Assembly (NCBI RefSeq): GCF_902652985.1
Contig: NC_047028.1
Coordinates: 12,462,001 to 12,526,000, forward strand
Source of the DNA: Pecten maximus
Lineage: Eukaryota
Length of the DNA: 64,000 nucleotides
Direction: 5' to 3'
This document shows positions 45,001 through 47,621 of this stretch, piece after piece. Position numbers: made by a program. How positions within the stretch are numbered: position 1 is the first letter of the stretch; each line of letters begins with the position of its first letter.

Positions 45001-47621
45001 TCATAGCATACATGAAATATTGTGTATATTCTATCCTATATTATATATATATATATATCCTACACTATATGTATGTTACCCTTCATTGAATATATTCTAT
45101 CCTATATTGTATTACTAGTATTCATATCCTGCATTGTATGTACATTCTATTGTATGTATTCTAATCTACTTTGTATATATTCTATCTTACATTTTATACA
45201 TCTATCCTGTATTGGGTATATATATATGTACGCTTATGTTTAACGGTATATTTATATGAATATTAATATTTTATTGCTTTATATTATCCCGTGATAAAAT
45301 AATAATCCAGTATTTAGATTTAAGTAACCTTAGCCAAAGGTTTACTCTCTTATACAATCTCAAGGAGTTACTTCCCCTTAAGTCAATTTGTCATATCAAT
45401 GTGTACATATACATTGTATTTGTCTGTATATAAGGAGAAGACTAAGGTAGGCTATTCCTGATATCTAATGCTATTGACTTTCTTTCTATGTCAATAAAAT
45501 TTGTCAAAATTGAAATTGAATATATCTTTTATTATACATTTAAAAAAAATCCTTTCCTATATCTATCCTACATTGTATATATTCTATCTTACATTGTATA
45601 TATGTCTATTACCTGCATTGTTGCATCCTAAGTTATATATATGCCTGTTTTACATTGTATATATTTTATCCTACTTTGTATAATTCCTATCCTACATTAT
45701 ATATGTGATCATACTTTGTATATCTTCTTATTCTACATTGTATATATCTATCCTTCATTTTATAAATTCTATCCTAATTGTTTATATTCTATCCTACAGT
45801 TTATATATCTATCCTGCATTGTATAAATCCTAAATTATATATGCCTGTTTTACATTGTACATGTATATATTTTCTCCTACTTTGTATAATTCCCATCCTA
45901 CATTGTTATACCCATCTTTAATTTATATTTCTTATCCTACATTATATATATTCTGTCCAAAATTGTTTATATCTATCCTGCATTGTATATATCCTTAATT
46001 ATATATACGTTTTACATTGTACACTGATATTATATTTTATATATTCATATCTTCCATTGCATATTCTATTCATACATTGTGTATTGTTGTCCCATATTAT
46101 ATATTCCTATTCTACTTTTTCAGGTGTATGAAACAACAACGGCTGTCCCTAATCCTTACCATGGCTTTCCTTCAGTCACTTAGCAGCGCTAAAGTCTTCA
46201 GAGATGATGGACTGCATACAGATTTCCAGACGTCCAACGCGGACTTTACCTTGGAGATTTATAAGCGTTTGACTAAAATGTCCACAGACGGGAATTTGTT
46301 CTACTCGCCTTTCTCCATCTCTGCCGCTATGTCCATGGTTTATCTTGGTGCCAGGGAGCAGACGGCAGCCCAGATGATTCCCGCGCTTAGAATTCAATCC
46401 TTAGGTCAGCGGGTGCACGATGGTTATGAGGATTACTTGAAGGTGGTTTTAGGTAAAAGCGATAACGTCACACTTCAGATTGCCAACAGACTGTATCCTG
46501 ACAGTAAGACGGACATTGTACCATCTTTCATTGAGCTATGTGCTAAGCACTACCAAGCCGACACCAAAACAATGGACTATGGACAATTTGAAACTGCAAG
46601 AAAAGAAATCAACGAATGGGTGAGTCATCAGACAGCAGAGAAAATAAAAGACCTTCTTCCTGAGGGATCTTTAAATCCATTAACAATGATGGTATTGGTA
46701 AACGCTATCTACTTCAAAGGTGACTGGGAGACAAAATTTGATGACAAAGTTACCAGGGATATGACCTTTCATAACCTCAAAGGTCAACAAAAGACTGTGA
46801 AAATGATGTTTCAGAAAGCTACAAAATTTCCGCTTAAATACGATGATGAATTCAAATGTAAGGTTTTGGAATTGCCTTACAAAGGGAACAGCCTCTCAAT
46901 GGTCATTATTTTGCCAGATGATACAGACGGATTGCCTGCTCTTGAAGAGAAATTAACCCCGTCCGTACTTAAAGGACTTACGACAGAAATGCCACCTGTA
47001 AAAGTGGAAGTGTTTCTCCCAAAATTTAAACTTAAATCGGGGTTTGAGCTTTCAAAAATGTTCCAAAGTATGGGAATGACAGATCTGTTTGATAAATCCA
47101 AAGCCGACCTGACTGGCATAGACGCCTCCAAGATGTCATATGTGTCCGCCATATTTCACCAAGCTTTTGTGGACGTGAACGAAGAAGGCACTGAAGCAGC
47201 AGCAGCCACAGCCGTTGTAATGATGAAAAGATCATTGCCAAGACCACCATTACAGTTCAAGGCCGACCACCCATTCATGTTTGTCATCAAAGACAATCGG
47301 TCCAACACAATTTTGTTTGTTGGAAGATTTGCTGATGTTGTTGAGGCACAAGGAAAAGATGAATTATAGAAAACTCATTTGTTCAATTTCATTGATACAG
47401 AAAATGTGGTGCTGATGTACTTGCCTTCTGATTTTTACAATTGAACCCTGTCCTAGTTTGCTTGTGTATATGAGACTGAAAACATCACCCTTTAATATAT
47501 TGTTACTACTGCTGTCAATTGTTATATCCTATAGTGTTCACACTGATAACATTGCATTGATAATCTTTATTAGTCCCATGCCGTTTGAAAAACGGGGGGA
47601 CTTTAGGTTTACCCTCCGTCC

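What the first reader, a model, noticed from the sequence alone, without database searches (positions are those of the whole stretch)
47181..47369. Copy 4: MMKR|S plus KDEL, a candidate molluscan proprotein-convertase inhibitor and probable ancestral copy
Dibasic Lys-Arg at P2-P1 (47226-47231) together with a signal peptide and ER-retrieval signal is the architecture of lancelet Bl-Spn1, whose loop I recall as also containing MMKRS, and of Drosophila Spn42Da. P4 is Met rather than Arg, which would favour PC1/3- or PC2-type enzymes over strict furin specificity (inference).
Basis: partly seen in the sequence, partly recalled or inferred. Interest (0 to 1): 0.65.

Follow-up and report, generated by a model that had tools for sequence, protein, structure and literature searches.

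The report
ER-tagged serpin with Lys-Arg bait
This is the fourth of four neighbouring protease-inhibitor (serpin) genes; its bait loop and cell-address tag resemble those of inhibitors known to restrain hormone-processing enzymes, so it is a plausible but untested new member of that known kind.

Summary
Copy 4 (46128-47369, +) is an uninterrupted 413-codon serpin gene. It has a signal-peptide-like N-terminus and a canonical inhibitory hinge. Counting from the hinge puts Lys-Arg at P2-P1 (47226-47231) and Ser at P1'. It ends in KDEL.

Kumar & Ragg 2008 give lancelet Spn-1 as NMMKR|S plus KDEL, and cite it as a convertase inhibitor.

Copy 4 is one of four tandem paralogues. Their scaffold is under purifying selection (dN/dS 0.20-0.41). 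Their bait loop is hypervariable, with P1 Arg, Phe, Cys, or uncertain.

The convertase target is plausible but unproven:
- P4 is Met, not Arg.
- Related solved serpins carry a similar V-V-x-x-x-R|S loop frame without Lys.
- An Arg bait also fits trypsin-like enzymes.

Membership of the neuroserpin lineage is not shown. No PDCD10 neighbour was found. The best solved match is SERPINB1, not neuroserpin.

"Ancestral copy" is only weakly supported, because the copies are mosaics. "Molluscan" could not be tested.

Verdict: new member of a known kind, of moderate interest.

The parts
46128..47369 (+). Copy 4 coding sequence: one uninterrupted ORF of 413 codons plus stop
   Evidence: ORF and translation. 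Pfam Serpin E = 1.4e-123. First in-frame ATG of the ORF, with none in the 100 in-frame codons upstream.
46104..46123 (+). Polypyrimidine tract ending in AG, 5 nt before the ATG. It looks like a 3' splice site, so a non-coding first exon is possible.
   Evidence: Sequence. A Y-rich tract plus AG is kept in 4 of 4 copies. The splice-site reading is inference; there are no transcript data.
46128..46190 (+). Predicted signal peptide, residues 1-21
   Evidence: Basic N-end, hydrophobic core with mean KD 2.47, S-S-A before KVF. Crude calculation; the cleavage site is inferred from the -3/-1 rule.
46233..47336 (+). Serpin domain, residues 36-403
   Evidence: Pfam PF00079 envelope. phmmer finds 200 solved serpins, best 4ga7 SERPINB1 at 1.9e-89.
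47181..47207 (+). Hinge, P17-P9 (E-E-G-T-E-A-A-A-A), of the inhibitory type
   Evidence: Translation. Invariant in copies 2-4; copy 1 has K at P16. That this pattern marks inhibitory serpins is established serpin knowledge (recalled).
47214..47252 (+). Hypervariable bait block, from P6 to the Leu before the conserved QFKADHPF (V-V-M-M-K-R-S-L-P-R-P-P-L)
   Evidence: 12 of 14 alignment columns vary, against 70 of 381 in the scaffold (Fisher p = 2e-7). It is the most variable 14-column window of the protein. dN/dS is 0.88-5.3 here against 0.20-0.41 in the scaffold.
47226..47231 (+). P2 Lys - P1 Arg codons; the predicted scissile bond follows 47231
47337..47366 (+). C-terminal tail beyond the serpin fold, ending in KDEL (47355-47366)
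   Evidence: KDEL fits the PROSITE ER-retrieval pattern quoted in PMC4476131.
21388..22596 (+). Copy 1: serpin ORF with no ATG aligned to the others' start (first ATG at 21409). It ends 8 codons earlier and has no KDEL. Its loop is one residue longer and P1 is uncertain.
   Evidence: From its first ATG there is no hydrophobic core (KD -0.43). Scaffold dN/dS is 0.20-0.29. Its flanks are unrelated to those of copies 2-4.
28542..29783 (+). Copy 2: signal peptide, P1 Phe by count (T-M-E-T-F|S-S), KDEL
36190..37431 (+). Copy 3: signal peptide, P1 Cys by count (I-I-V-A-C|S-S), KDEL
41406..43359 (.). 39-nt G-rich minisatellite (49 units) in the duplication unit upstream of copy 4. Shorter arrays lie upstream of copies 2 and 3 (26697-27583, 33303-33911).
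   Evidence: Tandem Repeats Finder; repeat families.
45558..46040 (.). AT-rich 20/61-nt tandem repeat with TATA-like motifs, directly upstream of copy 4
47572..48910 (.). About 1.3 kb of repeat-rich DNA present only in the 3' flank of copy 4. Homology with copies 2/3 stops at 47571 and resumes near 48911.
   Evidence: blastn of the unit. It holds a 152-nt tandem repeat at 47693-48190 and a ~210-nt interspersed repeat at 48602-48814. The first AATAAA after the stop is at 48210, inside this stretch.

Best explanation
Copy 4 is an intact, intron-free gene for an inhibitory serpin. The protein enters the secretory pathway through an N-terminal signal peptide and is returned to the ER/early Golgi by its C-terminal KDEL. 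Its exposed loop offers Lys-Arg|Ser as bait.

Proposed mechanism: a protease that cuts after the Arg becomes trapped as a covalent acyl-enzyme while the loop inserts into beta-sheet A, which is the standard serpin suicide mechanism.

The most likely targets are dibasic-specific subtilisin-like proprotein convertases. Because P4 is Met rather than Arg, PC1/3- or PC2-like enzymes fit better than strict furin-type ones.

The gene belongs to a four-gene tandem array. All four share one conserved scaffold and differ in the bait (P1 Arg, Phe, Cys, or uncertain). The array therefore achieves by gene duplication what Drosophila Spn42Da achieves by alternative loop exons.

Shown: gene integrity, fold family, hinge type, loop register by count, KDEL, the array and its pattern of selection.
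Inferred: signal-peptide cleavage, ER residence, the cleavage site, the target protease, and expression.
For: - Full-length serpin in 4 of 4 copies.
- Inhibitory hinge, with P2-P1 = K-R by the P15 count.
- KDEL in 3 of 4 copies.
- Signal-peptide-like N-terminus in 3 of 4 copies.
- P4-P1' (M-M-K-R|S) is identical to the lancelet Spn-1 loop as printed in Kumar & Ragg 2008. That protein also ends in KDEL and is cited there as a convertase inhibitor. A chance match in a fixed register is about 4e-7.
- Sea urchin and sea anemone Spn-1 also combine a dibasic P2-P1 with HEEL/SDEL, and have no intron in the serpin core, as here.
- Spn4A/Spn42Da combines RRKR with HDEL and inhibits convertases.
- The scaffold is under purifying selection (dN/dS 0.20-0.41). 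The bait block has excess non-synonymous change (dN/dS up to 5.3; 5 of 6 pairs p < 0.05 against the scaffold; the pairs are not independent).
Against: - No P4 Arg, which the constitutive kexin-like convertases require.
- The closest solved C-terminal matches (8gxv, 9j91) carry V-V-M-Q-L-R|S and V-V-A-M-L-R|S. The V-V-x-x-x-R|S frame is therefore generic, and only the P2 Lys is convertase-specific.
- KDEL is a trait of the whole array, including copies with P1 Phe and Cys. It does not point to convertases in particular.
- Kumar & Ragg state that the physiological partners of the Spn-1 proteins were not identified.
- The primary paper on lancelet Spn-1 (Bentele 2006) is not held, so its enzymology is known here only through citing papers.
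- There is no expression evidence, no structural model and no orthologues from other species.
Confidence: 0.5

Rival explanations
1. Copy 4 is a general Arg-specific inhibitor of trypsin-like (S1) serine proteases. Together with copy 2 (P1 Phe) and copy 3 (P1 Cys), it guards zymogen-producing secretory cells against premature trypsin-, chymotrypsin- and elastase-type activity, or leaks out and acts in haemolymph. On this view the P2 Lys is incidental to loop diversification.
For: - P1 Arg with P1' Ser in a V-V-x-x-x-R|S frame occurs in solved serpins without a dibasic site.
- The three KDEL copies carry P1 = Arg, Phe and Cys, which matches the classical trypsin/chymotrypsin/elastase preferences (the specificity rule is established knowledge).
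- P4 Arg is absent.
- The best whole-protein match is SERPINB1, an elastase-type inhibitor.
- One atlas lead was a cluster automatically named Serpin I2. This is a lead only.
Against: - All five residues P4-P1' match a serpin cited as a convertase inhibitor.
- K at P2 together with R at P1 is expected in only about 1 in 100 four-copy arrays by composition.
- Sea urchin and sea anemone Spn-1 also pair K-R with an ER signal, which suggests the pairing is kept by selection.
Confidence: 0.3
2. Copy 4 is a young, redundant or unexpressed duplicate. Its Lys-Arg is a by-product of rapid loop turnover and has no dedicated function.
For: - The copies differ by only dS 0.13-0.24.
- About 1.3 kb of repeat DNA sits 200 nt after the stop codon. 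The first AATAAA lies 841 nt downstream, inside that stretch.
- The base at -3 before the ATG is T.
- There are no transcript data.
Against: - The 413-codon ORF is intact.
- Scaffold dN/dS against the other copies is 0.20-0.30.
- Copy 4 has the fewest private changes of the four (19).
- The signal peptide, hinge and KDEL are all kept.
Confidence: 0.07
3. Copy 4 is a non-inhibitory ER-resident serpin chaperone of the HSP47 type, which also ends in [RKH]DEL.
For: A C-terminal KDEL on a serpin is the hallmark of HSP47.
Against: - The hinge is the canonical inhibitory one, G-T-E-A-A-A-A. HSP47 hinges carry charged or polar residues at P10/P12.
- No HSP47 chain appears among the 60 best solved matches listed.
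- Passages of PMC5583329 state that HSP47 is missing from invertebrates with known genomes.
Confidence: 0.03

Closest known systems
Lancelet Spn-1 (Branchiostoma lanceolatum Bl-Spn1 / B. floridae Bfl-Spn-1)
   Same: Signal peptide, P4-P1' M-M-K-R|S, C-terminal KDEL, and a closely related paralogue in the same cluster (Kumar & Ragg 2008).
   Different: P5 is Asn there and Val here. The lancelet gene has two introns in the serpin core and lies head-to-head with PDCD10. Here the coding sequence has no intron and no PDCD10 was found in the window. Whole-protein similarity could not be measured, because the sequence could not be fetched.
Drosophila Spn42Da (Spn4), isoform with the RRKR loop
   Same: Signal peptide plus an ER signal (HDEL), K-R at P2-P1, and one scaffold serving four different loops, with some isoforms lacking the signal peptide. 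Copy 1 here likewise lacks both address signals.
   Different: P4 is Arg there (a furin consensus) and Met here. Diversity there comes from alternative loop exons; here no spare loop cassette exists and diversity comes from whole-gene duplication. Solved chain 4p0f scores 230 bits, rank 27.
[quoted passage not shown]
   Same: Dibasic P2-P1 (TMTKR|S in the urchin), an ER signal variant (HEEL, SDEL), and no intron in the serpin core.
   Different: The urchin gene is paired with PDCD10. The tetrapeptides differ from KDEL. A multi-copy array with diversified loops is not described there.
Vertebrate neuroserpin (SERPINI1)
   Same: P1 Arg and a C-terminal sorting extension. It is proposed to descend from the Spn-1 lineage.
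   Different: Single Arg, targets tPA, ends in HDFEEL, has six or more introns. Only 205 bits, rank 34 of 200.
Clade B serpins (SERPINB1, PAI-2, SERPINB3/4)
   Same: Highest sequence similarity among solved structures (303-274 bits). They share the two-residue insertion that conserpin lacks.
   Different: Clade B serpins lack a cleavable signal peptide and an ER signal (recalled knowledge). Copy 4 has both.
Ciona group U6 serpins
   Same: Tandemly duplicated serpins with ER-retention signals and differing reactive loops.
   Different: Different signals (HDEF/HDEL), different loops, and an intron at 225a. No K-R bait appears in the passages seen.

Membership tests
Serpin superfamily, inhibitory type | Full-length serpin fold | tested here: met
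   PF00079, E = 1.4e-123, model 2-369 of 370. 200 solved serpins matched. No 3-D model was obtained.
Serpin superfamily, inhibitory type | Hinge with Gly at P15, Thr/Ser at P14 and small residues at P12-P9 | tested here: met
   E-E-G-T-E-A-A-A-A at residues 352-360. The rule itself is recalled serpin knowledge.
Serpin superfamily, inhibitory type | Covalent, SDS-stable complex with a protease after cleavage at P1-P1' | not testable with these tools
   No biochemical or proteomic data.
Secretory-pathway convertase-inhibiting serpins (functional class: Spn4A, lancelet Spn-1) | N-terminal signal peptide | tested here: met
   Basic N-end, hydrophobic core KD 2.47, S-S-A|K. Crude calculation only.
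Secretory-pathway convertase-inhibiting serpins (functional class: Spn4A, lancelet Spn-1) | C-terminal ER-retrieval tetrapeptide [KRHQSA]-[DENQ]-E-L | tested here: met
   KDEL at 47355-47366. Pattern as quoted in PMC4476131.
Secretory-pathway convertase-inhibiting serpins (functional class: Spn4A, lancelet Spn-1) | Dibasic residues at P2-P1 | tested here: met
   Lys367-Arg368.
Secretory-pathway convertase-inhibiting serpins (functional class: Spn4A, lancelet Spn-1) | Arg at P4 (constitutive kexin-like motif) | tested here: not met
   P4 is Met. Motif from PMC6784293. Lancelet Spn-1 also has Met at P4, so this is not disqualifying for the class.
Secretory-pathway convertase-inhibiting serpins (functional class: Spn4A, lancelet Spn-1) | Demonstrated inhibition of a proprotein convertase | not testable with these tools
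   None.
Spn-1 / neuroserpin orthology group (Kumar & Ragg 2008) | Head-to-head neighbourhood with PDCD10 | tested here: not met
   330 of 330 stop-to-stop segments of at least 40 aa gave no PDCD10 match at E <= 0.01. The serpin ORFs, eight tandem-repeat zones and low-complexity segments were excluded. The upstream minus-strand gene is DUF1647. The test is weak: short exons would be missed, and the window is only 64 kb.
Spn-1 / neuroserpin orthology group (Kumar & Ragg 2008) | Two-residue insertion after alpha1-antitrypsin position 173 | tested here: met
   Copy 4 has two residues where conserpin has a two-residue gap (KIKDLLPEGSLN against KIKDLLKD--LD), and no gap against SERPINB1. Mapping this to position 173 is my inference. 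The feature is shared by vertebrate groups 1, 3 and 5, so it does not discriminate.
Spn-1 / neuroserpin orthology group (Kumar & Ragg 2008) | Loop signature x-M-x-K-R|S with a secretory address code | tested here: met
   V-M-M-K-R|S plus KDEL.
Spn-1 / neuroserpin orthology group (Kumar & Ragg 2008) | Phylogenetic grouping with Spn-1 / neuroserpin | not testable with these tools
Among solved chains, neuroserpin ranks 34th and Spn42Da 27th of 200. That does not favour the grouping, but it is not a phylogeny.
Multi-loop serpin genes with alternative reactive-loop exons (Spn42Da type) | Spare loop-encoding cassette exons downstream of a shared core | tested here: not met
   tblastn with the C-terminal 74 aa found only the 4 full genes below E = 0.1.
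HSP47-type ER chaperone serpins | Non-inhibitory hinge together with [RKH]DEL | tested here: not met
   KDEL is present, but the hinge is of the inhibitory type.

The most novel reading that the evidence does not exclude
Copy 4 is the lophotrochozoan (protostome) orthologue of the Spn-1/neuroserpin lineage. On this reading the M-x-K-R|S bait plus an ER address has been kept since the bilaterian or eumetazoan ancestor. In this animal the ancient convertase guard then seeded a tandem family of ER-retained serpins with new baits (Phe, Cys) and one copy stripped of both address signals. That would be a gene-duplication counterpart of the Spn42Da splicing system.
Probability: 0.25. Interest if true: 0.6.

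Novelty: new member of a known kind. Interest (0 to 1): 0.4.

Why it matters
Serpins are among the few natural protein inhibitors of proprotein convertases (PMC6784293 calls them the only known ones), and few have been characterised. In the papers read here, secretory-pathway serpins with a Lys-Arg bait and an ER signal are documented for deuterostomes, a cnidarian and Drosophila. The protostome link is described as unresolved (2008) or "becoming clear" (2015).

The array also gives a compact natural example of one scaffold with several baits under positive selection, all carrying an ER tag. What ER-retained serpins with Phe or Cys at P1 do is an open question.

The protein itself is already predicted in a public collection, and the kind is known, so the gain is incremental.

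Tried and rejected
- **HSP47-like chaperone:** rejected on the hinge.
- **Alternative loop-exon gene (Spn42Da type):** rejected, because no spare cassettes exist.
- **PDCD10 synteny:** I replaced it with 330 stop-to-stop segments scanned through alignments A4, A5 and A7. No PDCD10 was found; the only clear hit was DUF1647, plus four marginal hits at E of about 0.004-0.006.
- **Rooted history of the four copies:** abandoned. The informative sites conflict (16/13/9) and cluster by position, and no outgroup was available.
- **Structure:** There is no model, and fold search was not used.
- **ESM Atlas:** only generic serpin clusters; no help with lineage or taxon.
- **NCBIfam:** no family.
- **Rfam and tRNA scans of the window:** 0 hits each, so no taxon marker.
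- **Literature on a mollusc serpin with KDEL or an M-M-K-R loop:** nothing specific. The only serpin-loop paper holding 'MMKR' is Kumar & Ragg 2008.
- **Papers not held:** Bentele 2006 and Richer 2004.
- **Retroelement trace near 50.4 kb:** only a marginal RVT_1 hit, E = 0.091.
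Full report
**1. What is at the coordinates**

The window has no N, and I do not take it for human. The stretch 47181-47369 is the 3' end of a long plus-strand ORF. Codon 352 (Glu, P17 of the hinge) begins at 47181, and the stop codon ends at 47369. AAA AGA at 47226-47231 encodes Lys-Arg, and AAA GAT GAA TTA at 47355-47366 encodes KDEL.

The hinge Gly (P15) is residue 354. The canonical 15-residue count then makes Lys367 P2, Arg368 P1 (47229-47231) and Ser369 P1'. This is a count, not an observed cleavage.

The first in-frame ATG is at 46128, and none lies in the 100 codons upstream. The N-terminus has basic residues, a hydrophobic core (mean Kyte-Doolittle 2.47 over 10 residues) and S-S-A before KVF. 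That is signal-peptide-like by a crude measure; no dedicated predictor was available.

The 413-residue product is a full-length serpin (PF00079, E = 1.4e-123, model 2-369 of 370).

**2. Gene model**

Each copy's coding sequence is a single uninterrupted ORF.

A polypyrimidine tract ending in AG sits 5 nt before the ATG. A similar tract is kept in 4 of 4 copies, so a non-coding first exon is possible. This is inference, since there are no transcript data.

**3. The surroundings: a four-gene array**

tblastn finds exactly four serpin genes, all on the plus strand: 21388-22596, 28542-29783, 36190-37431 and 46128-47369. Their starts are spaced 7166, 7648 and 9938 nt apart. No spare fragments or loop cassettes exist.

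- Copy 4 is 90%, 88% and 87-89% identical in protein to copies 2, 3 and 1.
- Copies 2-4 share alignable flanks, including a 39-40-nt G-rich minisatellite upstream.
- Copy 1 shares only its coding region. Two kb on each side of it match nothing near the other copies.
- Copies 2, 3 and 4 have the signal-peptide-like start and KDEL.
- Copy 1 has no ATG aligned with the others' start and no hydrophobic core after its first ATG (KD -0.43). It ends 8 codons early, without KDEL.

By the hinge count, the baits are:

| Copy | Bait | P1 |
|---|---|---|
| 2 | T-M-E-T-F\|S-S | Phe |
| 3 | I-I-V-A-C\|S-S | Cys |
| 4 | V-M-M-K-R\|S-L | Arg |
| 1 | one residue longer | uncertain |

**4. Selection and history**

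- *Scaffold.* Nei-Gojobori dN/dS is 0.20-0.41 for all six pairs, copy 1 included.
- *Bait block.* In the 14-column bait block dN/dS is 0.88-5.3. There, 12 of 14 columns vary against 70 of 381 elsewhere (Fisher p = 2e-7), and it is the most variable 14-column window in the protein.
- *Non-synonymous excess.* The ratio of non-synonymous to synonymous differences is higher in the block than in the scaffold in 5 of 6 pairs (one-sided p 0.005-0.033; copy 2 against copy 3, p = 0.30; the pairs are not independent).
- *Nature of the changes.* The differences are in-frame point changes, not rearrangements.
- *Age of the copies.* Synonymous distances are 0.13-0.16 among copies 2-4 and 0.18-0.24 to copy 1.
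- *Mosaicism.* Parsimony-informative sites conflict: 12|34 has 16, 13|24 has 13 and 14|23 has 9. They cluster by position: 12|34 in the first 600 nt, 13|24 at 750-1050, and 14|23 around the loop. The copies are therefore mosaics, most simply through gene conversion, and no single rooted tree exists.
- *Ancestral claim.* Copy 4 has the fewest private changes (19, against 26, 28 and 49) and shares identical P6-P3 codons with copy 1. This favours 'least derived' only weakly.

**5. Comparison with known proteins**

*Solved structures.* Of 200 distinct sequences matched:

| Chain | Bits | Rank |
|---|---|---|
| SERPINB1 | 303 | 1 |
| Conserpin | 297 | 2 |
| PAI-2 | 281 | 5 |
| Antithrombin | 244 | 14 |
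| Spn42Da isoform B | 230 | 27 |
| Neuroserpin | 205 | 34 |

With only the C-terminal 79 residues as query, the best chains are 8gxv and 9j91. Their loops read V-V-M-Q-L-R|S and V-V-A-M-L-R|S. The V-V-x-x-x-R|S frame is therefore common, and only the P2 Lys is special to copy 4.

*Kumar & Ragg 2008* (PMC2556349; I read the outline, sections 4 part 1, 6 and 7, and found passages):
- Lancelet Spn-1 is given as P5-P1' NMMKR|S with KDEL and a signal peptide, and is cited as a convertase inhibitor.
- Sea urchin Spu-Spn-1 is TMTKR|S with HEEL.
- Sea anemone Spn-1 has a dibasic site with SDEL.
- The urchin and anemone genes have no intron in the serpin core.
- The lineage is defined further by head-to-head PDCD10 and by a two-residue insertion after alpha1-antitrypsin position 173.
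- The physiological partners were not known.

The primary paper (Bentele 2006) is not held.

*Spn42Da/Spn4A.* It has RRKR and HDEL. Its gene makes eight isoforms from four loop exons, with or without a signal peptide (PMC4147316, passages; PMC4006314, Background section).

*Ciona.* It has tandem ER-signal serpins with different loops (PMC4150122, passages).

*Convertase motif.* Constitutive kexin-like convertases use P4Arg-X-X-P1Arg (PMC6784293, Introduction).

**6. Membership tests**

- *Inhibitory serpin:* fold and hinge are met; the covalent complex is untestable here.
- *Secretory-pathway convertase-inhibitor class:* signal peptide, ER signal and dibasic P2-P1 are met. P4 Arg is not met, as in the lancelet protein. 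Inhibition is untestable here.
- *Spn-1/neuroserpin orthology group:* the loop signature and address code are met. The two-residue insertion is met (copy 4 has two residues where conserpin has a gap), but it does not discriminate. The PDCD10 neighbourhood is not met: 330 of 330 stop-to-stop segments of at least 40 aa gave no PDCD10 hit at E <= 0.01. The serpin ORFs, eight repeat zones and low-complexity segments were excluded. The gene upstream on the minus strand is DUF1647. This test would miss short exons. Phylogenetic grouping was untestable.

I therefore say that copy 4 works like a Spn-1/Spn4A-type guard. I do not file it as an orthologue.

**7. Mechanism and rivals**

*Main reading (0.5).* Copy 4 is an ER/early-Golgi-retrieved suicide inhibitor whose Lys-Arg|Ser bait traps dibasic-specific convertases. 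With Met at P4, PC1/3- or PC2-like enzymes fit better than strict furin-type ones.

*Chief rival (0.3).* Copy 4 is an Arg-specific guard against trypsin-like enzymes. It forms a trio with copies 2 and 3 (Arg, Phe, Cys at P1) that mirrors trypsin/chymotrypsin/elastase preferences.

*Minor rivals.* An unexpressed young duplicate (0.07), and an HSP47-like chaperone (0.03, rejected on the hinge).

*Chance.* K-R at P2-P1 is expected in about 1% of four-copy arrays by composition. M-M-K-R-S in register has probability about 4e-7. The match to the lancelet loop is therefore either inherited or convergent under similar selection. Both favour a shared kind of target, but neither proves it.

**8. What stayed unchecked**

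The one open genome collection holds only bacteria and archaea and was not used. As a result I have no orthologues from other species, no phylogeny, no reciprocal search and no taxon assignment; 'molluscan' is untested.
- The Atlas holds the protein letter for letter, so it is already predicted in a public set.
- No structure was obtained.
- Supplements were closed. Kumar & Ragg's Additional file 1, on PDCD10 neighbourhoods in protostomes, may bear on the synteny test.
- Literature searches found no description of a mollusc serpin with KDEL or this loop in the held library. Subscription journals are mostly absent from that library.

**9. Verdict**

- It is a new member of a known kind (a secretory-pathway serpin with a dibasic bait), set in a tandem array with a positively selected bait loop.
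- Interest is 0.4.

Noticed in passing
window 21388-22596: Copy 1 lacks both address signals: there is no ATG aligned with the others' start, and it ends 8 codons early without KDEL. Its ORF is otherwise intact, with scaffold dN/dS 0.20-0.29. Its flanks share nothing with those of copies 2-4. It could be a cytosolic variant, a gene that needs an upstream exon, or an early pseudogene.
   Followed up: partly
window 28542-29783 and 36190-37431: Copies 2 and 3 keep the signal peptide and KDEL but have Phe and Cys at P1 by count. These would be ER-retained serpins with chymotrypsin- and elastase-type baits, and their targets are unknown.
   Followed up: partly
four coding sequences (21409-22596, 28575-29783, 36223-37431, 46161-47369): The three possible site partitions (16, 13 and 9 sites) each cluster in a different part of the gene. 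This indicates gene conversion or recombination among the copies.
   Followed up: partly
window 26697-27583, 33303-33911, 41406-43359; and 59557-64000: A 39-40-nt G-rich minisatellite lies upstream of copies 2, 3 and 4. A 38-nt array of about 120 units fills the window's 3' end. The 38-nt array resembles the other in reverse orientation: local score 22 against a shuffle mean of 14.5, with 3 of 500 shuffles reaching it.
   Followed up: partly
window 47572-48910: About 1.3 kb present only in copy 4's 3' flank. It contains a (CTGT)n run, a 152-nt tandem repeat (47693-48190) and a ~210-nt interspersed repeat (48602-48814). That interspersed repeat also occurs at 18656-18868 (94%, opposite strand) and at 2995-3188 (83.5%). 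The first AATAAA after the stop lies inside this stretch.
   Followed up: no
window 14317-15162 (-): A single-ORF gene of 281 aa with a hydrophobic N-terminal segment and a DUF1647 domain (E = 5.8e-07). It is head-to-head with the array, about 6.2 kb from copy 1. It has no solved relative.
   Followed up: partly
window 637-2583, 4627-6442, 7057-8892, 10541-11156: Several long satellite arrays (155 nt x 12.6, 37 nt x 49, 45/179 nt x 41, 41 nt x 15) crowd the first 12 kb.
   Followed up: no
window 50408-50581 (+): A marginal reverse-transcriptase match (RVT_1, E = 0.091, below the family cut-off). It suggests a decayed retroelement remnant.
   Followed up: no
window 29778-30194 (-) and 37426-37830 (-): Near-identical 134-138-aa ORFs lie on the opposite strand just downstream of copies 2 and 3. 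The one tested (29778-30194) has no Pfam match. They are probably chance ORFs within the duplicated 3' flank.
   Followed up: partly
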